Made by a program: the position numbers and the translations under genes. A stretch of DNA of 64,000 nt. Origin: Naegleria gruberi (lineage: Eukaryota). Location of the stretch: the NCBI GenBank assembly GCA_000004985.1, contig GG738860.1; one strand, given 5' to 3'. The stretch's first letter is position 1; each line of letters starts with the position of its first letter. The notes under the pieces are model-generated. The model was not told the DNA's origin. It saw only the letters and a program-made list of their open reading frames with translations, and did no database searches. Of this stretch, positions 6,490 to 50,049 are shown piece after piece.

Positions 6490-6771
6490 TTTTTATGCTC
6501 GAACATCATCAACAAATTATTGCAATAATTTTACTTCCTCATTTTTATCAAATTACTTCATCACAATAATTCTGTATCGGAATTTGTGTACTTCAACATT
6601 CACCAAAGGAAATTAGTTGAGTCTATTTGTTATTTCAATGAAACAAAATAGTAATAATAAATACATTTGTTTTCTTGTGATTGGTAGAAGCTATTAATAT
6701 CAACCAATTAAATGTTAAAGAATTCTATTCCAAAGAACACCGCATTCAATAAGAGCTGGCAATTTGCTTGA

Positions 6772-6799
6772 GCGGCAAACTTTGAAAATTAGCGCCAAA
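6772..6799. promoter_or_regulatory. two E2F-like sites (GCGGCAAA, GCGCCAAA) in the Nop52/importin-beta divergent promoter
   Basis: 6772-6779 GCGGCAAA (reverse complement TTTGCCGC) and 6792-6799 GCGCCAAA (reverse complement TTTGGCGC). Both fit TTTSSCGC. They lie 57-84 bp upstream of ATG 6856. Confidence 0.4.
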
Positions 6800-6855: not shown

Positions 6856-9597
6856 ATGAACATTCAGGATTTCAGAAACTTGATGGATGTGCTCTCGTCC
6901 AACGATAATCAAGTTCGTCAAAACGCTGAAACCCATCTTGCCAATCTTAAGAATAATGACTTGGTATGTTTTTCATTTAATTGTTTTTATTAATCATTTT
7001 AACGTATTTTATTCTCCTCATCACCAACAATAATTTTTCTAGCCTAAATTTATGATTCTGTTAGTAACAGAACTTGCTGATGAAGCTAGACCAAACCATC
7101 TCAGACAATTGGCCGGTCTCCAACTTAAGAACCTTTTAGAATCCAAAGACTCACAAACAAAACATGCTTTAGAACAACAATGGTCCAGACAAGACGAAGA
7201 AACCAAAAATCAAATTAGAAATCAAGTTTTAGTAACACTCCACTCCACATCACAAGAAGCTAGAAAGACTGCTGCTCAAGTCCTCGCCGAATTTGCTTCT
7301 GTAGACTTGGTGCACAATCAATGGCTGAATGTTATTGAAACTGTCCTTAAAAACATTACCGAACCTTCTACACCTTTTGGTATTCAATCTAGCTTGATGG
7401 CCATTGGTTATCTGTGTGATATGTGTAGAGCCCCAGTTTTAAAGCACCAAACAAACCAAATTCTTACAGCTGTTATTCAAGGTATGAGAGAATCAGCAAA
7501 CAACGATATCAAATTTGCTGCCACACAAGCCTTGTTGAATTGTCTTGTTTTTGTTGAAGAAAACTTTTCAAGAGATGTAAGTATTATTATTATTTGAATC
7601 TTATTAATTCTAACTTTATATAGTCTGAAAGAGATTATATTATGCAAACCGTATGTGCATCAACCCAACTTCCAGACCCAAGAATTAGAGAAGTCGCTTT
7701 TGAATGTTTAGTTAAAATCGGATATTTGTACTATGATAAATTGTCACCATACATGGAAGCCATTTTTGGTGTAAGTAGTAATACTATTTTAACAAATTGA
7801 TATTAATTTATTAAAATATAGATCACAACCAAGGCTTTAACTGACCCTAATGAACAACAAGAAGTCCAATTACAAGCTATTGAATTCTGGACATCATTGG
7901 CTGAAACTGAAGCAATTATTCGTGAAGAAATTGATACTGCAATGGAAAATGATACCGAACCAATTAGACAAAGTTTCAATATTATTCTCCAAGCTCTTGC
8001 ACCATTAGTTGAACTTATGACTAAATGTCTTACAAGACAAGAAGAATATCAAGAAGATGGTGATATGTGTGTCAGTAATTATGCTTCAAATTGTATTGCT
8101 GCTATGGCCACTGTTGCTCAAGAAACAATTGTTGACCAAATTATGCCATTCGTTTCATCAAATATTAATAATCCAGATTGGCACTTTAAGGAAGCTGCTA
8201 CTTTGGCATTTTCTGCAATTTTGGATGGTCCAAGAAGAGGTGAAAGAATGAATGAACTTATCAACTCTGCCCTTCCATTCATTATGAGTCATGTTAATGA
8301 TGCAAACACTCTTGTCAAAGATACTTCAGTTTTTGCTCTTGGTAGAATTGCTGAATTCCATCCAGATCCATTGGTTGAAAATCATTTGGAAAATGTCCTC
8401 AAGACTCTTACAATTGCCTTCCAAGATGAAGCTCGTATTTGTAGTAAGGCTTGTTGGACTATTTTGCACATTGCAGAAGCTTTCTCAACTGATGATGATA
8501 GAGCTTCTTATCCACTTTCACAATACTTTAAGATTTTGGCTGAAATGCTCTTACAAGCTACTCTTAGACAAGATGCTTCTGAAAGCAATTTGAGAATCAA
8601 TGCTTATGAAGCTTTATCTGCTCTTGTTCACAGTGCTGCTAGAGATACCTATGAAATTTTGTCACACATTGTTGTTGAATTGTTGAATAGACTTGAACAA
8701 ACTCTTAACCACAGCCAAACTGAAGAAATCTGCTTGATTCAAGGTTTGATGTGTGGTGCTCTTCAAGTTTCTGCTAGAAAGCTCGAATTTAGAATTGTTC
8801 CAACTGCTGATAGAATCATGACCTTCTTGTTGAGAATCTTTGAATCTAAAAGCGCTAATGTTCATGAAGAAGCCTTCCTTGCTGTTGGTGCTGTCGCTGC
8901 TGCCCTTTCTAATGAATTCGACAGATATATGCCTCACTTTTTACCATTCTTATTGACTGGTTTGCAAACATTCCAATACGAACAAATCTGTCTTATCTGT
9001 GTCAACGTTATTGGTGATTTATGTATTGCTTTGAGAGACAAGCTTGCTTCTTATACTGATGCAATCATGGAAGTTCTTTTGAAGAATTTGCAAAACTCTG
9101 AATTGCAAAGAGATGTCAAACCAAACATTATTGCCTCTTTTGGTGATATTGCTCTTGCCATTGGTGTCAGATTTGAAAAATACATGAATTATGTTGGTAC
9201 TGTTTTGAGACAAGCTTGTGAAGCTCATGTTGATGCCACCAACGATGAAATGATTGATTATCTTAATCTTTTGAGAGAAAATATTTTCGAAGCCTATGTT
9301 GGTATTTTACTTGGCTTCAAGAAGGAAAATCCACAACTCTTTATTCCATATGTTGAATCAGTGTTAACCTTTGTCAAGATTGTCTATGAAGATCAAAATA
9401 CTGACCAACCTGTTTTCAATGCTGCTGTTTCTATCGTTAGTGACTTGGCTAATGTTTACGGTGTTGCCATCAAAGGTCCTATGCAACAAGAATTTATTAG
9501 AAATCTTGTCGAAGATGCAGTCAATTCAGCTGAATCAGAGACAAGAAAGATTGGTAATAAGGCTAAGAAGAACTTGAAGAAGATTACTCTCCTCTAA
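6856..9597 (+). CDS. importin subunit beta (karyopherin beta-1), 4 exons
   Basis: Exons 6856-6963, 7043-7576, 7624-7770, 7822-9597, all phase 0 with GTATGT/GTAAGT donors and introns of 47-79 nt. N-terminus MNIQDFRNLMDVLSSNDNQVRQNAETHLANL... and RQLAGLQLKN, with HEAT-repeat character throughout, match importin-beta. Confidence 0.85.
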
Positions 9598-18015: not shown

Positions 18016-18269
18016 GATGATGAATTAAATGTGTAGATTTTTTTGTTGAGTTTTTTCGTAAGGTTTGATGGGGAATGTGGCTGAAAGAACCTTGGGAGTG
18101 AATTTTGGAAAGTACTCTTGGAATGGAAAGAATAATTTTCCAATAAAATTTAATATCTCGGAGTGTATTGTAATATGCAATAATCAGATGAAAAGAAGTG
18201 GCGGAAGCAGGTTGGATCTCTCTTTCAAATAATAGTAAGTGGTAGTAGAATAATTAAATTTGTTTTCAT

Positions 18270-18297
18270 TTTGGCGGTAAAAGAAGATTGGCGCCAA
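18270..18297. promoter_or_regulatory. E2F-like sites TTTGGCGG and palindromic TTGGCGCCAA upstream of the CEP120-like gene
   Basis: 18270-18277 TTTGGCGG and 18288-18297 TTGGCGCCAA, 28-55 bp upstream of ATG 18325. Confidence 0.4.
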
Positions 18298-18324
18298 TAT
18301 TACGTACAAATAATATTCAAAAAA

Positions 18325-19794
18325 ATGTCTCAAATAGAATTGAACATGTCTGCAACACCTTCATTCTCGGGCAACTCTCAGGTGCCACAATCCGAGTTTG
18401 ATCTGGTCAACATGACGGATGAACAACAGAGAGAGTTGGCTGTAGAATTGATTAGAAACACGCCAGAATATAAGGCAGCTTGGGAGCTGGAATTATGGAA
18501 AAAACGAGAAAAAACTGTCTACAAAAAACAACTTGAAGAGAAGGAAAAACAACACTTGAAGAATGTGGAAGCAAAATTAAGAGAGGAATTTAGTAAATAT
18601 GAAAAACAAATCTTGGAACAAAAAGAAATTCTTAAAAGTAAGGAACAACAATACAATCAAGTGTTGGAAGAGATGAATGCAAGAGAGAAACAATTGGTAG
18701 GAGTTGAACTAGAGCTGAGGAGAAGAAAAACAGAGCTAGAAACTGATTATCAAAGAAAAATCGAGCATATGGAACATGTGATTAAAATGGAGAAGGAATC
18801 TTTTCAACAGCGACTGCAATTGGAAACCATTAAAAATCAAGAGCTTCAGAAGAGAATAGACCAACAATTATCTCACGATGTGATGGAACTCAATGAGAGA
18901 ATAACAAAGCTTCAAGTAGAAAATGAATCCCTTGAATCAAAACTTCATCAAGCCACTAATTCCAAACAAAATTACAAAATCCAATGGAAAAAAGTATCTG
19001 AAGAACTGATTAGAACAAAGAAGAAACAAGAATCAGAATTGAGAAAATTACAGCAAAAGATAATTGCTCTCCAAACTTTACAGACCTCTCCATTGACTCC
19101 TTCACAACCACCTCCAATGAATCCATTCTATCCTCACCCAAATATGCCTCAAAATTACCAGTATCCAAATCAAATGAATCCTCACTCTCCATTCTATCCA
19201 TATCCTCCAATGCAATCCCCATTCGATCCGAATAATATGCAACAAAATCCTCAGAATTTCATTCCTCCAAATCAGCAGCAACAAAAGCAAGATGCCGATG
19301 AAATTGGTTCTCTCAAAAAGATGCTTGCCGATCTGATTAAGAAAGAAACAGAAGACAAGAAGGAAGATAGCAAACTCAATACTTCGACATCGAGTTCAGG
19401 ATCTACCTCTTCAACATCCTCAGGAGAGAGCAATCGTAAGGGTAGTAAGAGAACTTCTCCATCGTCTTCCCCTCCCACTGTAAAAACAGCAAACTCCACC
19501 ACAAAGAAAACCTCACCTCCTCGTCAACAACAAACTAAACAGGAAGTTTTTGCCTATCCATCGCCTCATCTCGATAACAGTAGATACGAAGAAGAACCAT
19601 CCTTAAACGAAACCCAAAACGATATTTCTGTTGAGGCTCACAATTTTGCAAATCATGACCAGAACGAGAATGATGAAAGAAGCAGAGAGTTTAAACGATT
19701 ACTCCGAGAGAAATCCAGACTTTTGAAATCTGGAATTTACGATTCAAAGAGTGATATTATTCTAGAAATTGAAAAGAAACTTCAATCTTTGTAA
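18325..19794 (+). CDS. coiled-coil protein resembling the C-terminal (coiled-coil) half of centriolar protein CEP120
   Basis: The first ATG is at 18325. Blocks PEYKAAWELELWKK, ATNSKQNYKIQWKKVSEELIRTKKKQE and C-terminal LLREKSRLLKSGIYDSKSDIILEIEKKL match my memory of conserved CEP120 C-terminal blocks. No C2 domains are present. There is a P/Q-rich insert. Confidence 0.4.
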   Translation: MSQIELNMSATPSFSGNSQVPQSEFDLVNMTDEQQRELAVELIRNTPEYKAAWELELWKKREKTVYKKQLEEKEKQHLKNVEAKLREEFSKYEKQILEQKEILKSKEQQYNQVLEEMNAREKQLVGVELELRRRKTELETDYQRKIEHMEHVIKMEKESFQQRLQLETIKNQELQKRIDQQLSHDVMELNERITKLQVENESLESKLHQATNSKQNYKIQWKKVSEELIRTKKKQESELRKLQQKIIALQTLQTSPLTPSQPPPMNPFYPHPNMPQNYQYPNQMNPHSPFYPYPPMQSPFDPNNMQQNPQNFIPPNQQQQKQDADEIGSLKKMLADLIKKETEDKKEDSKLNTSTSSSGSTSSTSSGESNRKGSKRTSPSSSPPTVKTANSTTKKTSPPRQQQTKQEVFAYPSPHLDNSRYEEEPSLNETQNDISVEAHNFANHDQNENDERSREFKRLLREKSRLLKSGIYDSKSDIILEIEKKLQSL

Positions 19795-19959: not shown

Positions 19960-19967
19960 CCGCCAAA
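19960..19967. promoter_or_regulatory. E2F-like site (CCGCCAAA) upstream of the BRCT gene
   Basis: The reverse complement is TTTGGCGG. It lies 17 bp upstream of ATG 19984. Confidence 0.35.
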
Positions 19968-19983: not shown

Positions 19984-21318
19984 ATGACCCAAAACTCATC
20001 AACACCAACATCACCAATTCTCGGTTCGTCATCGTTTGATGACAACAAATCGGAGGCAAGTTCCACACCTTATGAACCATCCCCAGAGTTATTTAAAAAG
20101 CCAACAAAAACAATCATACAAACATCTGATGATGATTATGACTTTGAAGAAGAGAACGATAATAATAAGAAAGAAGAATCTTCTGATGACGATTCAGCTA
20201 ACAAATACGAAGAAGAAAGAAAAAAGAAAATAGAAAGAAACAAAATGTTACTTGCTAATTTAGGCCTTGGTAATGGTTTATTACCAAAGAATAATAACTC
20301 TACCACAACAAAGAAATCAAGAAGGTCAACCGGAAGTGAAAGTGGTGAACCAACAGAAGTCAGAAGATCTTCCAGACTTTCGTCTAAACCAAAACCAGTC
20401 TACAACTATAGAGAACTTGAAAAGGTAGAAAAAGAATCTAGAAGAGTCATTGCACAAGAGAAAAAGCTAAAGAAGGAAGAACAAAGATTAAAATACTTTT
20501 CAAAGAGAACACTGAGGAAACATCGTGGTGAAGAGGAAGAAAGTGCTGAAGAAACTGATGAAGACACTTACGTTTCCGAATATAATGAAAATAATAAGAG
20601 AAGAAGCTCAAGAAATAAGAAGAAGATTGATTATGCAGGTTTGGAACATGGAGACTCAGAAAGTGAAGGTGAATTTGAAGAATTTGACCAGGTGACAGTA
20701 GTAGTGGAAGAATCTCCAAAAAAGAAAAAGAAAGTCACCAAAAAGAGTACGATTGCTTCTCCAGTATGCTCTTTTTCAAATTTTACAATATCAGATGAAC
20801 ATGCTGTTAGCTACACTGAAATTGGTGGAACAGTTGCTGAGACACCAAGCGATGAGAATATCACTCATGTCGTTACAAAGGTCTACAAGAGAACTCTCAA
20901 ACTCATGTGTGGAATAATTAGAGGAGCTTACATAGTGTCGGAAGATTGGCTCCTGGATTCTTTAGAAAATGGATATTTTGTTGATGAGAAACCATATCTC
21001 ATTAAGGCTGATGGTGTGAGTCTATTACAAGCAAGAAAACGTGCCTTAGCCCAACCAATATTTGCAGATCTCAAATTCTTTATTTGTGATGATGTACAAG
21101 CTCGTGATATTGTAACACAAATCATTGAAACAGGTTCAGGGTCGATTATCACTGCCATTGATGAAATGTTGGAAGAGGACTATGATTTTGAGAATTGCTA
21201 TATTATATACGAAGAGGAAGAGACAAAAGACAAGTATCCAACACTACCAAACGAAGTTTTCAGGACAAAGGAATTTATCTTCACAGCTGCTGTGTCCCAA
21301 AAAATAGAAGATGTGTAG
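19984..21318 (+). CDS. tandem-BRCT domain protein with acidic/basic N-terminal region
   Basis: 444-aa ATG ORF. C-terminal BRCT-like blocks: ITHVVTKVYKRTLKLMCGIIRGAYIVSEDWLLDSLENGYFVDEKPY, and a second FADLKFFICDD...ETGSGSII. Confidence 0.6.
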   Translation: MTQNSSTPTSPILGSSSFDDNKSEASSTPYEPSPELFKKPTKTIIQTSDDDYDFEEENDNNKKEESSDDDSANKYEEERKKKIERNKMLLANLGLGNGLLPKNNNSTTTKKSRRSTGSESGEPTEVRRSSRLSSKPKPVYNYRELEKVEKESRRVIAQEKKLKKEEQRLKYFSKRTLRKHRGEEEESAEETDEDTYVSEYNENNKRRSSRNKKKIDYAGLEHGDSESEGEFEEFDQVTVVVEESPKKKKKVTKKSTIASPVCSFSNFTISDEHAVSYTEIGGTVAETPSDENITHVVTKVYKRTLKLMCGIIRGAYIVSEDWLLDSLENGYFVDEKPYLIKADGVSLLQARKRALAQPIFADLKFFICDDVQARDIVTQIIETGSGSIITAIDEMLEEDYDFENCYIIYEEEETKDKYPTLPNEVFRTKEFIFTAAVSQKIEDV

Positions 21319-32896: not shown

Positions 32897-32977
32897 GTTG
32901 AGGTGGCCGAGTGGTTAAGGCGCCAGCCTGCTAAGTTGGTGGAGTAATCCGCGTGGGTTCGAATCCCATCCTCAACG
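32897..32977 (+). tRNA. tRNA-Ser (anticodon GCT, decodes AGY)
   Basis: Acceptor stem GTTGAGG/CCTCAAC with discriminator G. D-arm/A-box TGGCCGAGTGGTTAAGGC. Anticodon stem-loop CCAGC-CTGCTAA-GTTGG. The long variable arm is consistent with Ser. T-arm/B-box GGGTTCGAATCCC. Confidence 0.92.
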
Positions 32978-40936: not shown

Positions 40937-41021
40937 GATAATTCTAATGCTGCTGACCACTAAAACAAAAACACAAACTCCTGGTGTGCAAAGCTGCTGA
41001 TCTTTATATTTTTTTTTTAAA

Positions 41022-41046
41022 GCGAAAGAGCGAAAACCAAGCGAAA
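41022..41046. promoter_or_regulatory. triple GCGAAA (TTTCGC on the gene strand) repeat upstream of the esterase gene
   Basis: aGCGAAAgaGCGAAAaccaaGCGAAAa at 41022-41027, 41030-41035 and 41041-41046, 86-110 bp upstream of ATG 40936. Confidence 0.35.
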
Positions 41047-41967: not shown

Positions 41968-43026
41968 TTACAATAATTTCAAATGTTTTGTAACAGTATC
42001 AATTAATTCTACAGGAGCTGGACCAATTCCAAGTACTGTTTTCGATCCAGCTTCAATTTGAGTTCTTCCAGCATCAACAACAAGATAACAATTCAAACGT
42101 TGTTGTAAACATTTTTGAAATAAATTATCCAATTCCTTATCACTATCTGCTTTAAGACAAATCTTAGCTTCAGCTGTTACTTCCCAGTCATGTAAATATT
42201 GTTTCCATTGTTGCATATCTTGGTTGGTGATTTGTGTTGGCTCTGAATTTGATGATGAAAATAATAATTGAGTTTGAGCAAAATAGGAGGTGTTTTCATA
42301 GAGAATATTTCTATAGAGACCGACAGCTGCATGACAACATTGAGCAGCAATCTTTCCTTTACCCATATTCAAATCATTTCTAACAACAAATACCATCTTG
42401 TAAGCCTTTGATGTCGGGAATGATTTCATCAAATATTCTTGATATTTTTGATNNNNNNNNNNNNNNNNNNNNNNNNNNNNNNNNNNNNNNNNNNNNNNNN
42501 NNNNNNNNNNNNNNNNNNNNNNNNNNNNNNNNNNNNNNNNNNNNNNNNNNNNNNNNNNNNNNNNNNNNNNNNNNNNNNNNNNNNNNNNNNNNNNNNNNNN
42601 NNNNNNNNNNNNNNNNNNNNNNNNNNNNNNNNNNNNNNNNNNNNNNNNNNNNNNNNNNNNNNNNNNNNNNNNNNNNNNNNNNNNNNNNNNNNNNNNNNNN
42701 NNNNNNNNNNNNNNNNNNNNNNNNNNNNNNNNNNNNNNNNNNNNNNNNNNNNNNNNNNNNNNNNNNNNNNNNNNNNNNNNNNNNNNNNNNNNNNNNNNNN
42801 NNNNNNNNNNNNNNNNNNNNNNNNNNNNNNNNNNNNNNNNNNNNNNNNNNNNNNNNNNNNNNNNNNNNNNNNNNNNNNNNNNNNNNNNNNNNNNNNNNNN
42901 NNNNNNNNNNNNNNNNNNNNNNNNNNNNNNNNNNNNNNNNNNNTGTGTTCTTGTGATGACATTTTTTAATGAGTTGGAATTATTTTGAAAATAATCACAT
43001 GAGGAATAAATTGCAGAATTGAACAT
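41968..43026 (-). CDS. PTRH2: peptidyl-tRNA hydrolase 2 (PTH2/PTRH2), interrupted by an assembly gap
   Basis: C-terminal domain YKMVFVVRNDLNMGKGKIAAQCCHAAVG...YLVVDAGRTQIEAGSKTVLGIGPAPVELIDTVTKHLKLL*. N-terminal exon from ATG 43026 (MFNSAIYSS...). The middle lies in 491 N. Confidence 0.85.
   Translation of the reverse strand: MFNSAIYSSCDYFQNNSNSLKNVITRTXXXXXXXXXXXXXXXXXXXXXXXXXXXXXXXXXXXXXXXXXXXXXXXXXXXXXXXXXXXXXXXXXXXXXXXXXXXXXXXXXXXXXXXXXXXXXXXXXXXXXXXXXXXXXXXXXXXXXXXXXXXXXXXXXXXXXXXXXXXXXXXXXXXXXXXXXXXXXXXXXXXXXQKYQEYLMKSFPTSKAYKMVFVVRNDLNMGKGKIAAQCCHAAVGLYRNILYENTSYFAQTQLLFSSSNSEPTQITNQDMQQWKQYLHDWEVTAEAKICLKADSDKELDNLFQKCLQQRLNCYLVVDAGRTQIEAGSKTVLGIGPAPVELIDTVTKHLKLL
42453..42943. other. 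assembly gap (491 N)
   Basis: A run of n characters inside the PTH2 gene. Confidence 1.
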
Positions 43027-43296: not shown

Positions 43297-45741
43297 ATGG
43301 CCAGAACCAAGCAAACAGCGAGAAAATCGACGGGTGGCAAAGCTCCAAGAAAACAATTGGCTTACAAAGCTAGAAAAGCAAACAGACCTTTCCCTTCCCG
43401 TTCGTTGGCAGGTCCTTTTTCTGATGAGGAAAAAGCAATTTTTGTGAATGGTTTGAAAAGAGCCTTCGATGGAAGTGAAGAATCATCAAAATTTGATGTA
43501 AATACCTATGAAGGAGCTTCACAATTAGTCAAATTTTGGATTTTCCAAGATCAAAAAAGAAGAAAATTGAAACCAATGGTAGAGGAAGCTAAATGGAATG
43601 GCAGCTTTGAATTGCTTCACAATCTTCCTATGGATATCAAGTATGAAATTATTGATTTTATTCCAACCTTTTCCTTGAGAGATTTTTACAAAATCAAGTT
43701 AGACGAATTCACTGAACAGATGAAGCTGGCACAAGTTGAAGATATTTCTAAAATTGTATGCAAAGGACTGAATTTGTTTGAAACCTTTACAAAGAGATCT
43801 TTTCAAAATTTGTACTATTCAGATCCTCTCTATAGAAACTATTACAAGAAGAGACTAATTAACAGAGAATATGCATTAAGAATGAAACAAAGGATATTGA
43901 AGTTGGATGAGTTTGATATTACAGATATTGATTATGATATTGGTTCTGTAAAGAAAGACAAACTATTGCACTTCTTTTCGTTGGTTAAGGAGATGAATGA
44001 AATTGACACTGTTGACTTTAATGATGTGGTCATTCACAGAAATATTGAAAAAATCAAGTCATTGGTAAATGGAACCACCACAAAAAGAAATGAAGATGAT
44101 TACGAGTCACCTTGTGAAGAACCAATGGATGATACTGATTCAATTAGTAATGAGCCTAATGTAACTGTATCATTTGATGAAATGGAGCTACTTTCTGAGG
44201 AAGAAATGAAAAAGTTAGAATCAAAATCTATTGCCATACTGCAGGAATCAGAAAGAGGATATTATAATACTCGTAATTACAATAAGTTTAACAAGCAAGA
44301 TAGTAAATCTTTTAGAAAGCAAGCGATGTATTCGTATGCTATACCATTGGAACTAATAGGAACTGGTGCTATTCCACAAGAACAAAATTTTACTCGTGCC
44401 TTTTCTCACGAAGAGATTATGGAAAGGCTTAAGGAGTTTATTGGAATTAATTCATCCATTAAGAAACTTTCTGTCAGAGGTCTAGATGTCGGCTTTACAA
44501 ACACTGCCATGGACATCTGTAAAGGAATAACAGATCTTTCAATACTTTTATGTGAGTACGTGGATTATTTTGAGTGCTTTAAAGAAGTCCTACCAAATCT
44601 CAACAAGCTGACTATTAATGGAGTTTCTTCTCATTACTCAATTAGTTTTATGGAAAGCTTTATGATTGAGGAATATATTCAACCTAACTGTGTTGTTGAT
44701 TTAGGGTTTGCTACAGGCACTGACACATATTTCTCGGATTTTTTAAATCGTTATGTTGAAGATCAAAACGGTAACAAGACTCCATTGAAAATTACCTCAA
44801 AACTACTCTCAACTGAAAACGTAACCGAATATGCCGACTTTTTATTGAGGTTTATAGAAGGAGTATCTTTCGGCCAATTGTTTTCTGATTTTGATATGAA
44901 AAAGAAATTGGTAGATTACTTGGTAATTGAAGTTGGCATTCCAATTGAATGGCTTACGCTTACCACAAGTGGAGATACTATAATTACAGAATACTTAGCT
45001 TATCTTTCAAATGTTTATCAAAATGGGGCAATTAATTGTCCAAGCTCTATTATGTTACGAGCAGGCTTGATTCCAAATAATATAGCCAATGAATTGGTTT
45101 TTTCTAAATATGAATGGGATGTTGTTGAGTTATGTTTAGATTATTTAAAAAAGAGAGATGATATTGATGACTTTGTTTTGACCCTTAGAAATTTGCTCGT
45201 TTTCTATGTGTGTGATAGAAGTGATTCTCCACTCTTTGAACTATATTGTTACATTAAGAAGAATATTCCAGAAAGTCAATTCAAAGAAATTTTAAAGCCT
45301 ATCAAATGTATCATTCCAGAAGGCTACAAAGAAAAGAACAATGAAACCTTGCATACAGTTTCTATTCCCATCATTTGCTTCCCATTCTCAAATTACCAAT
45401 TCGCTAAAGCTATCGTGGATGATATGACAGACGAAGATTTGAAATTTGTTAATGAGCTTGGTGACTCATGTCTGCACATTTATTCTAGACATGACCATAG
45501 TATTTGGAGTAGAATAGTTGAAAGAGTACCAGAGGTAGTCAAACTCAGCAACCCTGAGGGAGTAACACCTTTACATATTCATACTACCAATATCCAGTCA
45601 TACATATTTGTATTAGACTTGTTGACAAGATTTGGTGCTGACCCAAATGCAAAAGATATTGAAGGAAGAAAAGCTATTGGTGAATTTTTTATATTTGAGA
45701 ATGGTATTTTGAAAGTTAACAACAGATCAATGGAATATTAG
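43297..45741 (+). CDS. non-histone protein with a histone-H3 N-terminal tail, F-box-like motif and C-terminal ankyrin repeats
   Basis: ATG 43297 gives MARTKQTARKSTGGKAPRKQLAYKARKA..., identical to H3 residues 1-21. An uninterrupted 814-aa ORF follows with no histone fold. LPMDIKYEIIDFIPTFSLRDFYKI lies at 43624-43695. ANK-like GVTPLHIH...LLTRFGADPNAKDIEGRKAI lies at 45460-45678. Confidence 0.75.
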   Translation: MARTKQTARKSTGGKAPRKQLAYKARKANRPFPSRSLAGPFSDEEKAIFVNGLKRAFDGSEESSKFDVNTYEGASQLVKFWIFQDQKRRKLKPMVEEAKWNGSFELLHNLPMDIKYEIIDFIPTFSLRDFYKIKLDEFTEQMKLAQVEDISKIVCKGLNLFETFTKRSFQNLYYSDPLYRNYYKKRLINREYALRMKQRILKLDEFDITDIDYDIGSVKKDKLLHFFSLVKEMNEIDTVDFNDVVIHRNIEKIKSLVNGTTTKRNEDDYESPCEEPMDDTDSISNEPNVTVSFDEMELLSEEEMKKLESKSIAILQESERGYYNTRNYNKFNKQDSKSFRKQAMYSYAIPLELIGTGAIPQEQNFTRAFSHEEIMERLKEFIGINSSIKKLSVRGLDVGFTNTAMDICKGITDLSILLCEYVDYFECFKEVLPNLNKLTINGVSSHYSISFMESFMIEEYIQPNCVVDLGFATGTDTYFSDFLNRYVEDQNGNKTPLKITSKLLSTENVTEYADFLLRFIEGVSFGQLFSDFDMKKKLVDYLVIEVGIPIEWLTLTTSGDTIITEYLAYLSNVYQNGAINCPSSIMLRAGLIPNNIANELVFSKYEWDVVELCLDYLKKRDDIDDFVLTLRNLLVFYVCDRSDSPLFELYCYIKKNIPESQFKEILKPIKCIIPEGYKEKNNETLHTVSIPIICFPFSNYQFAKAIVDDMTDEDLKFVNELGDSCLHIYSRHDHSIWSRIVERVPEVVKLSNPEGVTPLHIHTTNIQSYIFVLDLLTRFGADPNAKDIEGRKAIGEFFIFENGILKVNNRSMEY

Positions 45742-45834: not shown

Positions 45835-48800
45835 TTATACAATAACAGGAGGAAGTCTCTCTCTTGAAATTGGACGAGACAGAGCTCGCTTCTCTGCCTC
45901 ATATTCTTCTATTTTCTCTCTAAGGGATTGAATCTTGTGTCGTTGCATTTCGATTTCCTTCAAAGCTTGTTCTAATGATGTAATACCACCAAGGTCCTTT
46001 AGTTCCAAAGATGATGAAGTTATATCGGTGCTCTTCTTTCCAATCTTGGACTCGAGCTCCTTGTCTTTAAGTTTTTGCTTTAGAGATCTAACTTCCTTTC
46101 TCAGGTCATTAATTTCCTTGATGAGGACAACATTTTCATTCATGATTCTCTTATTATCTGACTTGGAGGTTTCTGTTGCTTTAACAAGCTTCTTCTTGAG
46201 TGATTCGACTGTTTTTTCGAGGTAGGATCTTTGTCTTTCATATTCCTTTTGAATGTCAAAGTCCATTTCTTGAGTAGTAATCTTTTCAGAGACGTAGGTT
46301 TGGTAAAGCTTGGTAACCTCTTCTTTAAGCTCCTTTGGCTCTTGAATTAATTGTGCAACCTTGTAAATATCTGCACGAATTCTCTTCAATAGAGTGTCAT
46401 TATCTTTGACTTTAAAGTTCAGTCTTTGAATTTCCTTGACTCTTCCATCAATCTTGAGTTCGAGATCCTTGATTGAGAGAATTAATCTATCATTCTTCTC
46501 CTTAGCCTTTTCCAATTCTTTTCTCATCTTCTTGGATTGCTTTCTTAAACTGGTAATTTCTTCCTTACTTGGTTTGATTTGTTCTTGGAGAGTTGAAATC
46601 TTGTATTCTAAAACAAATCTGAATTTTTCAAGTTCTTGGTTTTGTCTCTTCAACTTGAAAATTCTCTTTTCCTTGTCAATAATGGTTTCTTCTCTTTCCT
46701 TATTTTCCTCACTCATCTTTTGAATATCCTCTTGATATTGCTTATTGAGATTTTCTGCTCTTTGCTTCTTTTCTTCCAACTTTTCAATAAGTTCTAGTTT
46801 TTGTTTCAAAGTCTTTTGTAAGGCAATAAATCTGTCATTCCACTTGTTAGCTTCACTCTTGGCTTCATTGTAGCTGTCGTTCATCTTTAACAACTTCTTT
46901 TCATACATTTCTTTCAAGATCTTGATTTCCTTATCTTGATCCTCTTCCATTTGATTTTTAATTTCGGAAAATTTCTTGTCCAACTCGACCTTCTCATCTT
47001 GTAATGTAACAATAGATCCATCTTTTCTCTTAATTTCATCTTCATATTCTTCCGTAATATCTGTGAGCTCTCTCATGTGCATTTCCTCCTTATTCTTGGA
47101 ATCATCTAGGATTTGCTTCTTCTCCTTCTCTCTGTCTCTGTTGAGTTCGGAAATTTGTTCAAGAGAATTGTGCAATCTCTCGTTAAAGTCTTGTTCCAGA
47201 GCTTTGATTTTTTCTCTGTGTTTTTCTATCAACTCATCGATTTTCTTCTCGTACTCATCTGTTACACTTTTCTTCTCTTGCAAAATACTTTGAATTTCCT
47301 CTTGTTTCTTTGTAAGTTCAAGATTGAAGCTTTTTGCTTGTTCTCTGAGAGCATTATTGAATTCAATTTCCTTTTTCTTTTGCTCGTATTCATTGTCTGA
47401 CTTTAATTCTGCAACTTTTGCTTGAAGCTCAGCAATTGTGGTATTCTTTTCTTCCCATTCTGCTCCTGAAATCAAAATTTCTTCCGAATATTTTGTTTCC
47501 TTCTTAGTTTTACCTCCATCTCTGTCTCTTATTTCCACAATACCCAGCATACCATCTTCACCTGAACTGAATAAGAAAGAATCATCCCAAGCTTTAGAAA
47601 TTCTTGTCACAGGACCTGAGTGCAAGTATAGTTTGTCTTCTATATACTCCAGATTTGGAAATGAATGCACAGTAATAGCACCAGTCTCTAGACCACCAAA
47701 TATCATCTTTAATCCTTCAGAGTACTCCATACAAACCAATGTATTATCTCCCAAATCATATTCTGTTTGTGGATTACCTTCACTGAAGCCCTTAATCTTG
47801 TTATCTGATCCAGTAACAAAAATACTCTTTCCGTCTGTGGCGACAGATGTGTATCCAACATTCTTATTAGTATGGTGAATGGTTCTCTTCTCAGTTTTTA
47901 CAACATATTCGTACACAGCACCATCCATACCAACACTCAGTACTCTAGTATCATCATCAGTCCATTGAAGAGCTCTGATTTTACCATTGTGGCCCCTGAG
48001 GGCAGATATTAATTGGAGAGTGTAGGTATTGTAAACGTTGATTACGTTACCGTGAGCTGCTGCAAAGTAATGACCACCATTACTGAACTTTACCTCACCA
48101 CAATTTCTTACCAAGAAAGATTTCTGCTCTCTAATATCATCTCCCAAAATATCCATAAATCTCAGTTTATCTTGGAAACCAACAACCAAGTGCAAACCAC
48201 TAGGGTGAATTGCTATTGAGTAGGCCTCGGCTGGGAATTGTTTTACAATATTCAGTGTATTATCCAAGTAGTTCCATACTCTGACAGTCTTATCTGTACT
48301 GCAGGTCGCAATAATTGGCTTTCTAATAGCAGTATCCATTCCCGTTATGGCCTTTGAGTGGAATGGAATTGTGAGATATTCAAATTTAATGTCATCTTCC
48401 TTTTGTAAAATATCAGAACTACTGATATTCAAAGTAAATATTTGAGCTGAACTTGTTGAAAGGACCAAGTTTTCATTTGAAGGACTCAAATTAAAATTGA
48501 GAATTTTGTGATCGAGATAGGTTTCGCTCAGTTCCTTATATTGAGTGCTATTCATAACTCGTAAAGTCTTTGATCTTGAATACATTTCCTTTTCATCGGC
48601 CGATTTTTCAAATATTGAAACAACTCCATTCTCACCTCCACATACAAACCCAGTTCCATAAGGAATGAGTGCTGTTATACTAAGTCCATCTGATGGAGAT
48701 GAGGGTAAAATAAATTTAAATTCATTCTTTTCAACGAAAAATAAATCTCCGTTAGCATTTGAAACAACTAACTTCTCTTCATCTAACCAGGTATGAGACA

Positions 48801-49467
48801 GATAAGGCTCATGATCTCTTTTGCCAATACCGTCTGTCACAACTTTGAGTTTTTCTCTATCATCTAGGGTTAATAATTTAAATACACCATTACCAGTAAC
48901 ACAAATAGTTTTGCTATCTGGACTAATTGAACATTGAAAGACTGGATCTCCATCCACTGAAGATGTACAAATCGTATCAACTATCCTAGTTTTACCTTCC
49001 ATAGACCACAAAACTAAATTATATTCTGGACCTCCTCCTTGGGCTACCAAATATTTACCATCCAATGAGAAAGCCATACAAACAAATTCATGAGATCCAA
49101 CACCTGGATGAGAAATCGTCTTTTTGACTGTGTATGTTGTTGTTTCATAGAGTTTAATAAGAGGTGGGTTTTTTTTGAGGTCAGTGATCTTTACAGTTGA
49201 TGAAAGTGGTTTTGTTTTTTCTGCAACAGCCAAATATTTTCTATTAGGTGCTAGACAAAGAGCTGATATTCCTTCCGTATTATCGGACCCTGTTTTAATC
49301 TTCCTCACTCCATTTGTTTGATGAAAAACTAGGCATCTACCTGAAGGGTAAACGACACATGTATCGTTGACATTATCTCTAATGTACCAGATATTATTTT
49401 TTACCTTTGCATTAAGACCAAACACATTTTTAAGTGAGAGGATGTGGTTTTGAAATGGTTCAGTCAT
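45835..49467 (-). CDS. CFAP57/WDR65-like cilia- and flagella-associated WD40 + coiled-coil protein
   Basis: Single 1210-aa ORF. The N-terminal ~650 aa are WD40 beta-propellers (LKNVFGLNAKVKNNIWY..., multiple WD-like repeats). The C-terminal ~550 aa are continuous K/E-rich coiled coil. The architecture and N-terminal block match CFAP57. Confidence 0.65.
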   Translation of the reverse strand: MTEPFQNHILSLKNVFGLNAKVKNNIWYIRDNVNDTCVVYPSGRCLVFHQTNGVRKIKTGSDNTEGISALCLAPNRKYLAVAEKTKPLSSTVKITDLKKNPPLIKLYETTTYTVKKTISHPGVGSHEFVCMAFSLDGKYLVAQGGGPEYNLVLWSMEGKTRIVDTICTSSVDGDPVFQCSISPDSKTICVTGNGVFKLLTLDDREKLKVVTDGIGKRDHEPYLSHTWLDEEKLVVSNANGDLFFVEKNEFKFILPSSPSDGLSITALIPYGTGFVCGGENGVVSIFEKSADEKEMYSRSKTLRVMNSTQYKELSETYLDHKILNFNLSPSNENLVLSTSSAQIFTLNISSSDILQKEDDIKFEYLTIPFHSKAITGMDTAIRKPIIATCSTDKTVRVWNYLDNTLNIVKQFPAEAYSIAIHPSGLHLVVGFQDKLRFMDILGDDIREQKSFLVRNCGEVKFSNGGHYFAAAHGNVINVYNTYTLQLISALRGHNGKIRALQWTDDDTRVLSVGMDGAVYEYVVKTEKRTIHHTNKNVGYTSVATDGKSIFVTGSDNKIKGFSEGNPQTEYDLGDNTLVCMEYSEGLKMIFGGLETGAITVHSFPNLEYIEDKLYLHSGPVTRISKAWDDSFLFSSGEDGMLGIVEIRDRDGGKTKKETKYSEEILISGAEWEEKNTTIAELQAKVAELKSDNEYEQKKKEIEFNNALREQAKSFNLELTKKQEEIQSILQEKKSVTDEYEKKIDELIEKHREKIKALEQDFNERLHNSLEQISELNRDREKEKKQILDDSKNKEEMHMRELTDITEEYEDEIKRKDGSIVTLQDEKVELDKKFSEIKNQMEEDQDKEIKILKEMYEKKLLKMNDSYNEAKSEANKWNDRFIALQKTLKQKLELIEKLEEKKQRAENLNKQYQEDIQKMSEENKEREETIIDKEKRIFKLKRQNQELEKFRFVLEYKISTLQEQIKPSKEEITSLRKQSKKMRKELEKAKEKNDRLILSIKDLELKIDGRVKEIQRLNFKVKDNDTLLKRIRADIYKVAQLIQEPKELKEEVTKLYQTYVSEKITTQEMDFDIQKEYERQRSYLEKTVESLKKKLVKATETSKSDNKRIMNENVVLIKEINDLRKEVRSLKQKLKDKELESKIGKKSTDITSSSLELKDLGGITSLEQALKEIEMQRHKIQSLREKIEEYEAEKRALSRPISRERLPPVIV

Positions 49468-49494
49468 TTTTTTTGTAGATTATTAGAGAAAAGT

Positions 49495-49502
49495 TTTGGC
49501 GG
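49495..49502. promoter_or_regulatory. E2F-like site TTTGGCGG(GA) upstream of the CFAP57-like gene
   Basis: gTTTTGGCGGGAg lies 28 bp upstream of the minus-strand ATG at 49467, in the divergent region shared with the kinase-WD40 gene. Confidence 0.35.
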
Positions 49503-50049
49503 GAGTTCTTTAACGGTTGATGGTTTGAGGTTGAAAGATTGTAAGTTGTATCAGTTTCTGATATCACTAAAAAACAAGAAAGTGTTGAATATTACAATGA
49601 AAGTATTTAAATATACTAAAACTGAATATCAAAGTGAACTCGTTACTAACAAAAGTGGTAATGTAGTACCTCAATAGTGATTACAGTTAACTAAGAATTG
49701 GAAATACGTAAACTTGTTTTGATACTTCATCACATTGTTATTATATATAATATAATAAATAGGGATTGAAGTATCGCTCGTTTATGGAAATGTGAAATGG
49801 CACATTTATGTATTTAAACAATGATGCATTCAATTTAGAACGAGCTGCTTGTCAATGCAAATAGAAACCTGAAGCGTTGGTCACTGAATCATCTTCCTTA
49901 TTTCTTGCCAACTCCGTTTTCAGTCTGTTCTGACGCCACCTTCTAAAAGAGCTTGTTAAAAGCAGCTATTCAGGTAGTCACTATTGCAACTTTCAAGAAC
50001 CTTCACCACAGAACTGTGGGCGAAAAAAAACAATATTTAACGTTAAAAA

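What the first reader, a model, noticed from the sequence alone, without database searches (positions are those of the whole stretch)
18270..18297. GC-rich E2F-like element TTTGGCG(G/C) recurs close to the ATG in four separate promoters
In an AT-rich window, the octamer fitting the E2F/DP consensus TTTSSCGC appears in these places:
- 6772-6779 and 6792-6799, between Nop52 and importin-beta.
- 18270-18277 plus the palindrome TTGGCGCCAA at 18288-18297, upstream of the CEP120-like gene and shared with the pseudokinase gene.
- 19960-19967, upstream of the BRCT gene.
- 49495-49502, upstream of the CFAP57-like gene.

All copies sit 17-90 bp from an ATG. On reading the window I did not notice the full motif inside coding sequence.

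The associated genes act in nuclear import, ribosome biogenesis, centriole and flagellum function, and the DNA-damage response. These are plausible cell-cycle or differentiation-regulated sets. This suggests a conserved E2F-like or organism-specific core promoter element.
Basis: partly seen in the sequence, partly recalled or inferred. Interest (0 to 1): 0.5.

Follow-up and report, generated by a model that had tools for sequence, protein, structure and literature searches.

The report
Conserved E2F-type promoter sites in Naegleria
A short GC-rich DNA word sits just upstream of four genes in this Naegleria gruberi window, is kept at the same genes in related amoebae, and matches the binding site of the cell-cycle regulator E2F, which these amoebae encode.

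Summary
All six stated sites exist, 17-85 bp upstream of an ATG and none in coding sequence. TTTGGCGS occurs 4 times against 0.69 expected from shuffles.

The window is Naegleria gruberi. Eight orthologous promoters of three of the four genes were recovered from N. fowleri, N. lovaniensis, Willaertia magna and two uncultured relatives. All 8 carry an E2F-type word within 150 bp of the ATG (TTTGGCGGGAA, TTTCCCGCCAAAA, GGCGCCAAA or TTTCGCGC). Only 9 of 88 other promoters do. The flanking DNA has diverged.

Orientation varies, so this is a DNA element rather than an RNA element. The words match published E2F/DP, E2F-homodimer and E2F8 specificities. N. gruberi encodes E2F, DP, DEL and Rb.

Best reading: gene-specific binding sites for an E2F-family factor, on about 10% of promoters. 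Binding itself is inferred, not shown.

Checks that did not help:
- No site lies upstream of the E2F gene's own start codon.
- A FancD2 promoter has no site.
- The importin-beta orthologues could not be retrieved.

This is a new instance of a known kind of element. Its appeal is that two targets are centriole or flagellum genes (a CEP120 coiled-coil homologue and CFAP57), in an organism where the regulators of cilia genes are unknown.

The parts
6772..6779 (-). Weak E2F-like variant TTTGCCGC, 78-85 bp upstream of the importin-beta ATG.
   Evidence: The same 11-mer, TTTGCCGCTCA, recurs at the Willaertia MGMT promoter. It may therefore be a distinct motif.
6792..6799 (-). E2F-type site TTTTTTTGGCGC, 58-65 bp upstream of the importin-beta ATG (6857).
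   Evidence: Conservation could not be tested because no orthologous locus was retrieved.
18199..18204 (+). Additional core GTGGCGGAAG in the same intergenic region.
   Evidence: It is one of only four TGGCGG copies in the window, all of them upstream of genes.
18270..18277 (+). E2F-type site TTTTGGCGG, 48-55 bp upstream of the ATG of NAEGRDRAFT_48030.
18288..18297 (.). Palindromic site TTGGCGCCAA (GGCGCC core), 28-37 bp upstream of the ATG. This is the best-conserved block of the promoter.

Aligned with:
- ATGGCGCCAAAAA in N. lovaniensis.
- TTTCCCGCCAAAA in N. fowleri.
- CTTCCCGCTAAA in the JGI relative.

GGCGCC is the published E2F homodimer site.
18304..18312 (+). Conserved GTAC(A/G)AA(A/T)A box, 6-7 nt downstream of the E2F-type site. 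It is a candidate initiator or transcription start region.
   Evidence: Alignment A1 across four taxa. The function is inferred only.
18325..19794 (+). Target gene NAEGRDRAFT_48030. It encodes a coiled-coil protein homologous to the C-terminal coiled coil of CEP120.
   Evidence: No C2 or PF12416 domain was found.
19960..19967 (-). E2F-type site TTTTGGCGG (sense strand CCGCCAAAA), 17-24 bp upstream of the BRCT gene ATG.
   Evidence: The N. lovaniensis and N. fowleri orthologues carry TTTCCCGC at -45 and -50.
19984..21318 (+). Target gene NAEGRDRAFT_65961, a protein with BRCT repeats.
49494..49505 (+). E2F-type site TTTTGGCGGGAG, 28-35 bp upstream of the CFAP57 ATG (the gene is on the minus strand).
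   Evidence: CCCGCC is the only 6-mer that is not A-rich and is shared by the CFAP57 promoters of all four taxa.
45835..49467 (-). Target gene, the CFAP57 (WDR65) orthologue, a flagellar protein.
6857..9597 (+). Target gene importin-beta. The first exon runs from 6857 to about 6965, followed by an intron.

Best explanation
These are promoter-proximal binding sites for an E2F-family transcription factor of Naegleria: E2F/DP, possibly an E2F homodimer at the GGCGCC palindrome, or the atypical DEL factor.

The factor would recognise a TGGCG(G/C) core flanked by a run of T or A, within about 100 bp of the start codon and in either orientation. It would then switch on or repress a specific subset of genes, roughly one promoter in ten. 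In this window those genes are:
- importin-beta;
- a BRCT protein;
- a CEP120-related centriole protein;
- the flagellar protein CFAP57.

What is shown: the sites exist, they are confined to promoters, they are kept by selection across species, and they match E2F specificity. It is also shown that the factors are encoded.

What is inferred: that E2F is the protein that binds, and what the regulatory output is (cell cycle, or exit from it during flagellate differentiation).
For: **1. Frequency and placement**
- TTTGGCGS occurs 4 times against 0.69 expected.
- Every copy lies upstream of an ATG.
- It is the top GC-rich word enriched in upstream regions.

**2. Phylogenetic footprint**
- TTSSCGS lies within 150 bp of the ATG in all 8 orthologous promoters from other species. 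The same is true of only 9 of 88 other promoters, several of which share one intergenic region.
- A ninth orthologue in a more distant relative reads GTTTCGCGCCATG.
- The alignment shows the site as an island in diverged sequence.
- CCCGCC is the only shared 6-mer that is not A-rich in the CFAP57 promoters.
- In 23 kb of N. fowleri and 23 kb of Willaertia sequence, the only exact TTTGGCGS copy is at the CFAP57 promoter.

**3. Match to E2F specificity**
- The variants found are TTTTGGCGGGAA, TTTCCCGCCAAAA, GGCGCC and TTTCGCGC.
- These are the E2F8, E2F2-DP1, E2F-homodimer and canonical sites reported in PMC4686757.

**4. Orientation**
- The site flips between species and between genes.

**5. 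The factors are encoded**
- E2F is present in N. gruberi, N. lovaniensis, N. fowleri, Willaertia and Acrasis. It has an invariant QKRRIYDITNVLEG segment and a C-terminal SGEGVSDLF motif of the Rb-binding type.
- DP, DEL and Rb are listed for N. gruberi in PMC4862756.
Against: - No binding data exist.
- The textbook TTTSSCGC form is not over-represented in the window.
- There is no E2F-type site upstream of the start codon of the E2F gene in N. lovaniensis or Willaertia. The one Willaertia copy lies 45 nt inside the called coding sequence.
- The N. fowleri FancD2 promoter has no site. FancD2 is, from my own knowledge, an E2F target in humans.
- No replication gene (MCM, PCNA, RNR) was available to test.
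- The importin-beta site could not be checked in other species.
- Distant CFAP57 relatives from other eukaryotes do not carry the motif: 1 of 33 do.
Confidence: 0.75

Rival explanations
1. The conserved element is real, but a different, lineage-specific DNA-binding protein recognises a GGCGG or GGCGCC core. The resemblance to E2F sites would then be coincidental.
For: - No binding evidence exists.
- No site lies upstream of the E2F gene's own start codon, and the FancD2 promoter has none.
- The target set (importin, BRCT, CEP120-like, CFAP57) is not the classical replication regulon.
Against: - Every fine feature of E2F specificity is reproduced: the flanking T/A run, GGCGGGAA, the GGCGCC palindrome, TTTCGCGC and indifference to orientation.
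- All E2F-family members with intact DNA-contact residues are encoded.
Confidence: 0.13
2. It is a general core-promoter or start-site positioning element used by the basal transcription machinery, rather than a gene-specific regulatory site.
For: - The position is close to the ATG, at -17 to -100.
- An adjacent conserved GTACAAAA box lies in one promoter.
Against: - It is present in only 4 of about 30 window promoters and in about 10% of other promoters.
- Both the orientation and the distance to the ATG vary.
- The element that is general to promoters is the A-run before the ATG.
Confidence: 0.05
3. It is an RNA-level element in the 5' untranslated region that affects translation or stability.
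For: - Some copies are only 17-35 nt from the ATG.
- In L091 the site directly abuts the ATG.
Against: - The element occurs on either strand relative to the gene, and it flips between orthologues.
- Palindromic versions occur.
- An RNA element would be strand-specific.
Confidence: 0.04
4. It is a chance recurrence of a GC-rich word in AT-rich intergenic DNA.
For: - There are only four loci in one window.
- The degenerate TTTSSCGS family as a whole is not over-represented: 5 copies are observed in the window, against my rough base-composition estimate of about 3-5.
Against: - 0 of 100 shuffles reach the observed TTTGGCGS count.
- All 8 orthologous promoters carry the motif against a background of about 10%, which is roughly 1e-8 if they are independent.
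- The copies are restricted to promoters.
Confidence: 0.02

Closest known systems
E2F/DP binding sites of animal and plant promoters (TTTSSCGC; SELEX forms TTGGCGGGAA, GGCGCC, TTTTTGGCGGGAAAA)
   Same: - The same core and the same preference for a flanking A/T run.
- A promoter-proximal position.
- Function in either orientation.
- Palindromic variants.
- A cognate E2F, DP, DEL and Rb gene set in the genome.
   Different: - The organism is a heterolobosean amoeboflagellate in which no cis-regulatory element of this kind has been described in the papers I could search.
- The targets seen here are not replication genes.
- No site lies upstream of the E2F gene's own start codon.
- Binding has not been shown.
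Multicilin/GEMC1-E2F4/5 programme that drives centriole amplification in vertebrate multiciliated cells
   Same: E2F-type sites sit on a centriole gene (the CEP120-related protein) and on flagellar genes (CFAP57, and NDK-Dpy30 in two species). Like multiciliated cells, Naegleria builds basal bodies de novo outside the division cycle.
   Different: - Naegleria was not checked for Multicilin or GEMC1.
- The link rests on two or three genes.
- Importin-beta and BRCT genes carry the same sites.
- CFAP57 relatives in other lineages lack them.
RFX X-box and FOXJ1 sites, the known cis-elements of cilia genes in animals
   Same: A short promoter-proximal element shared by flagellar genes.
   Different: - The sequence and the factor family are unrelated.
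- RFX, FOXJ1 and XAP5 are reported absent from Naegleria (PMC12183034).
CDE/CHR tandem elements bound by the DREAM complex
   Same: A GC-rich GGCGG-type core near the transcription start of cell-cycle genes.
   Different: No SGCGS-N4-TTYGAA arrangement was found in any of the 207 kb examined.

Membership tests
E2F-family binding site | The sequence matches the E2F/DP, E2F-homodimer or E2F7/8 specificity (TTTSSCGC; TGGCGGGA with an A/T flank; GGCGCC). | tested here: met
   compared with PMC4686757.
E2F-family binding site | The genome encodes E2F and DP proteins with intact RRxYD DNA-contact motifs. | tested here: met
   - E2F was found in five heteroloboseans with PF02319 and PF16421.
- DP, DEL and Rb sequences of N. 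gruberi are given in the supplement of PMC4862756.
E2F-family binding site | Promoter-proximal and independent of orientation. | tested here: met
   Sites lie at -17 to -100 from the ATG and on both strands. Transcription start sites are not mapped, so position relative to the start site is unknown.
E2F-family binding site | Retained by selection at orthologous promoters. | tested here: met
   All 8 orthologous promoters carry the motif, plus L091, against 9 of 88 in the background. The importin-beta promoter was not testable.
E2F-family binding site | Enrichment at canonical E2F regulon genes (replication, repair, and E2F or Rb themselves). | tested here: inconclusive
   - No site lies upstream of the E2F gene's start codon in two species.
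- The FancD2 promoter has none.
- BRCT and MGMT promoters carry E2F-like words.
- No MCM, PCNA or RNR loci were obtainable.
E2F-family binding site | Physical binding by E2F/DP and Rb-dependent regulation. | not testable with these tools
   This needs EMSA, DAP-seq, ChIP or a reporter assay.
CDE/CHR (DREAM) element | A GC-rich CDE followed, after 4 nt, by a CHR (TTYGAA). | tested here: not met
   A regex scan of the window and nine loci gave no match.
CEP120 protein family (for target gene NAEGRDRAFT_48030) | N-terminal C2 domains and the PF12416 'Cep120 protein' domain. | tested here: not met
   No Pfam hit, even at E <= 5.
CEP120 protein family (for target gene NAEGRDRAFT_48030) | Homology to the C-terminal coiled-coil region of CEP120. 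| tested here: met
   - The profile of four Naegleria orthologues hits residues of about 650-890 in about 1000-aa proteins that carry PF12416 and C2, with E from 1e-14 to 1e-8.
- Sources name these hits CEP120.
- Coiled-coil composition could inflate the scores.

The most novel reading that the evidence does not exclude
In Naegleria an E2F-family factor directly controls part of the de novo basal-body and flagellum programme (CEP120-related protein, CFAP57, radial-spoke NDK-Dpy30). That would fill the gap left by the absence of RFX, FOXJ1 and XAP5. It would also imply that the E2F-centriole biogenesis link seen in vertebrate multiciliated cells is ancient, or that it arose more than once.
Probability: 0.2. 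Interest if true: 0.75.

Novelty: new member of a known kind. Interest (0 to 1): 0.5.

Why it matters
- **A first candidate element.** I found no cis-regulatory element or transcription factor-target link described for Naegleria in the searchable literature. A 2025 review states that the factors controlling its cilia genes are unknown (PMC12183034).
- **A concrete hypothesis.** A conserved E2F-type site on centriole and flagellar genes can be tested directly against existing RNA-seq time courses of mitosis and differentiation (PMC10802493).
- **Evolutionary reach.** If confirmed, it would extend functional E2F sites to Discoba, which would support an E2F-Rb network in the last eukaryotic common ancestor at the level of DNA targets and not only of protein inventories.

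Tried and rejected
1. **Textbook consensus.** TTTSSCGC is not enriched in the window. The signal lies in TTTGGCGS and in where the copies sit.
2. **Exact-protein look-ups.** Look-ups for the N. gruberi 48030 ORF and for E2F failed.
3. **Importin-beta orthologues.** A metagenome scan for importin-beta relatives returned nothing usable. That promoter's conservation is therefore untested.
4. **E2F autoregulation.** No E2F-type site lies upstream of the E2F gene's start codon in N. lovaniensis or Willaertia. The only Willaertia copy lies 45 nt inside the called coding sequence.
5. **FancD2.** The N. fowleri promoter has no site.
6. **Distant CFAP57 relatives.** Among 80 metagenome loci, 33 upstream regions were usable and only 1 has the 8-mer. 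Many of these contigs are transcripts and their start codons are uncertain, so this is a weak test.
7. **Expression data.** The gene IDs 48030 and 65961 are not in searchable text, and the relevant supplements are not held.
8. **CDE/CHR architecture.** No such arrangement was found.
9. **Unrestricted k-mer enrichment.** It is dominated by A-runs before the ATG. The scan had to be restricted to GC-rich words.

Full report
**What the window is.** The window is 34% G+C, gene-dense and poor in introns. The ORF at 18325-19794 is 100% identical to the Naegleria gruberi predicted protein NAEGRDRAFT_48030, which lies on a 536,960-bp scaffold. The neighbouring BRCT gene is NAEGRDRAFT_65961 and the Nop52 gene is NAEGRDRAFT_48025. 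So this is nuclear DNA of N. gruberi.

**Checking the observation.**
- TTTGGCGS occurs four times against 0.69 expected from dinucleotide shuffles, and none of 100 shuffles reaches four.
- TTGGCGS occurs six times against 1.9 expected.
- The textbook TTTSSCGC form is not enriched: 2 observed against 1.12 expected.
- The sites lie 17-85 bp upstream of the ATGs of importin-beta (6857), NAEGRDRAFT_48030 (18325), the BRCT gene (19984) and CFAP57 (49467, minus strand).
- No TTSGCGS copy lies in an ORF, although ORFs make up 76% of the window.
- I scanned all k-mers for enrichment in the 200 bp upstream of ATGs. A-runs (AAAAAATG) dominate, as expected for an AT-rich promoter and Kozak context. Among GC-rich words the top two are CCGCCA (4 of 4 copies upstream) and CGCCAA (6 of 10).
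- One more core, GTGGCGGAAG at 18199, sits in the same intergenic region as the focal site.

**Gene labels.**
- Pfam confirms Nop52, importin-beta and BRCT.
- CFAP57 is confirmed by homology to named CFAP57 proteins.
- The 'CEP120-like' gene has no Pfam hit and is a coiled-coil protein.
  - A profile built from four Naegleria orthologues hits residues of about 650-890 in proteins of about 1000 aa, with E values from 1e-14 to 1e-8. These proteins carry the PF12416 'Cep120 protein' domain and a C2 domain, and sources name them CEP120 (chytrids, a starfish).
  - The label therefore holds for the C-terminal coiled coil only. The C2 part is absent.
- 'Pseudokinase' rests only on a kinase fragment at E = 0.049.

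**Conservation, the main new evidence.** I fetched orthologous loci from these sources:
- N. fowleri (L001, L002, L006);
- N. lovaniensis (L005);
- Willaertia magna (L003);
- two uncultured relatives from JGI metagenomes (L004 and L009; L091).

*CFAP57 promoter*:

| Taxon | Site |
|---|---|
| N. gruberi | TTTTGGCGGGAG |
| N. fowleri | TTTTGGCGGGG |
| Willaertia | TTTTTGGCGGGAAAC |
| JGI relative | TTAGGCGGGAAAA |

In 23 kb of N. fowleri and 23 kb of Willaertia sequence, this is the only exact TTTGGCGS copy. CCCGCC is the only 6-mer that is not A-rich and is shared by all four promoters.

*CEP120-related promoter*:

| Taxon | Site |
|---|---|
| N. gruberi | TTGGCGCCAA |
| N. lovaniensis | ATGGCGCCAAAAA |
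| N. fowleri | TTTCCCGCCAAAA |
| JGI relative | CTTCCCGCTAAA, plus TTTTGCGCGGGAAT upstream |
| more distant relative (L091) | GTTTCGCGCCATG |

In the alignment the site and a GTAC(A/G)AA(A/T)A box 6-7 nt downstream form the only conserved island.

*BRCT promoter*: N. gruberi has AAACCGCCAAAAT. N. lovaniensis and N. fowleri have AAACCGTTTCCCGCTT.

*Counts.* TTSSCGS lies within 150 bp of the ATG in 12 of 12 promoters of the four genes and their orthologues. That is 8 of 8 outside N. gruberi. It lies there in only 9 of 88 other promoters, and several of those nine are the divergent partner sharing the same intergenic region. If the promoters are independent, 8 of 8 at a 10% background is about 1e-8.

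*Orientation.* The site's orientation relative to the gene flips between genes and between species. This argues for a DNA-level element and against a 5'UTR RNA signal.

**What it matches.** Morgunova et al. 2015 (PMC4686757) report the following specificities:
- E2F8 prefers TTTTTGGCGGGAAAA.
- E2F2-DP1 prefers (T)TTGGCGGGAA(A).
- E2F homodimers bind GGCGCC.
- The canonical E2F/DP site is GCGCGC.
- A/T runs are favoured 5' of the TGGCGGGA core.

Every Naegleria variant falls into one of these classes.

The supplement of Medina et al. 2016 (PMC4862756) lists N. gruberi E2F, DP, DEL and RB sequences. I confirmed E2F proteins in N. gruberi, N. lovaniensis, N. fowleri, Willaertia and Acrasis. All have PF02319 and PF16421, an invariant QKRRIYDITNVLEG segment and a C-terminal SGEGVSDLF motif. 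From my own knowledge of E2F structure, RRxYD is the DNA-contact motif and the EGEGIxDLF-type motif binds the Rb pocket.

**Best explanation.** These are gene-specific, promoter-proximal binding sites for an E2F-family factor. They are present on roughly one promoter in ten.
- Shown: the sites exist, they are restricted to promoters, they are conserved, they match E2F specificity, and the factors are encoded.
- Inferred: that E2F, DP or DEL is the binder, and whether the output is activation or repression.

**Evidence that does not fit neatly.**
- No E2F-type site lies upstream of the E2F gene's start codon in N. lovaniensis. In Willaertia the only copy lies 45 nt inside the called coding sequence.
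- The N. fowleri FancD2 promoter has none.
- No replication gene was within reach.
- The importin-beta promoter could not be compared, because the metagenome scan found no relative.
- CFAP57 relatives from other eukaryotic lineages carry the 8-mer in only 1 of 33 upstream regions. Many of those contigs are transcripts.
- No CDE/CHR arrangement exists.

**Rivals.** The confidences of the rival readings are:
- an unrelated lineage-specific factor, 0.13;
- a general core-promoter element, 0.05, contradicted by the 10% incidence and the variable position;
- an RNA element, 0.04, contradicted by strand flipping;
- chance, 0.02.

**Novelty and interest.** E2F sites are a textbook element, and E2F/DP/Rb genes in N. 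gruberi were already known. This is therefore a new member of a known kind.

The interest comes from the targets. A CEP120-related gene and CFAP57 carry the sites. In N. lovaniensis and N. fowleri, a radial-spoke-type NDK-Dpy30 gene shares the BRCT intergenic region that bears the site. Naegleria builds basal bodies de novo when it leaves the cell cycle. A 2025 review states that RFX, FOXJ1 and XAP5 are absent and that the factors for its cilia genes are unknown (PMC12183034). In vertebrate multiciliated cells, E2F4/5 together with Multicilin drives centriole biogenesis genes.

The idea that E2F plays a related role in Naegleria is not excluded by my evidence. However, it rests on two or three genes, and importin-beta and BRCT genes carry the same sites. 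I give it 0.2.

Noticed in passing
window 43297-45741 (+): An 814-aa ORF begins with a near-exact histone H3 N-terminal tail ([28 protein letters not shown]). It continues as non-histone sequence with weak C-terminal ankyrin hits. The exact sequence is not in the protein collection. It may be an H3-tail mimic.
   Followed up: partly
window 13600, 19822, 41020, 41039: All four copies of the heptamer AAGCGAA(A) lie in regions labelled as upstream. They include a tandem cluster, AAAGCGAAAGAGCGAAAACCAAGCGAAAA, at 41018-41046. This is a second candidate promoter motif.
   Followed up: no
window 18304-18312; L005 ~9925; L006 ~3868; L009 ~1385: A GTAC(A/G)AA(A/T)A box lies 6-7 nt downstream of the E2F-type site. 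It is conserved in the CEP120-related promoter of four taxa and is a candidate initiator.
   Followed up: partly
window 6769-6779 (minus strand) and L008 15210-15220: The 11-mer TTTGCCGCTCA is shared between the weak site upstream of importin-beta and the Willaertia MGMT promoter. The TTTGCCGC variant may belong to a different motif.
   Followed up: no
L005 11466-12275; L006 5609-6202: A gene for an NDK plus Dpy-30 protein (radial-spoke NDK5 type) sits between the CEP120-related and BRCT genes in N. lovaniensis and N. fowleri. There it shares the intergenic region that bears the E2F site. It is absent from that position in N. gruberi.
   Followed up: partly
L009 886-897: AAGGCGCCAAAT lies about 42 bp upstream of a small EF-hand protein gene in the uncultured Naegleria relative. 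This is another candidate target.
   Followed up: no
window 32897-32977 (+): A tRNA-Ser(GCT) gene. It accounts for one of the GGCGCC copies that lie outside promoters.
   Followed up: yes
window ~42400-42960: A run of N (an assembly gap) inflates spurious ORFs on both strands.
   Followed up: yes
L007 8705-10000: The 1.3-kb region upstream of the N. lovaniensis E2F gene is unusually long for this genome and contains no called gene. Its nature was not examined.
   Followed up: no
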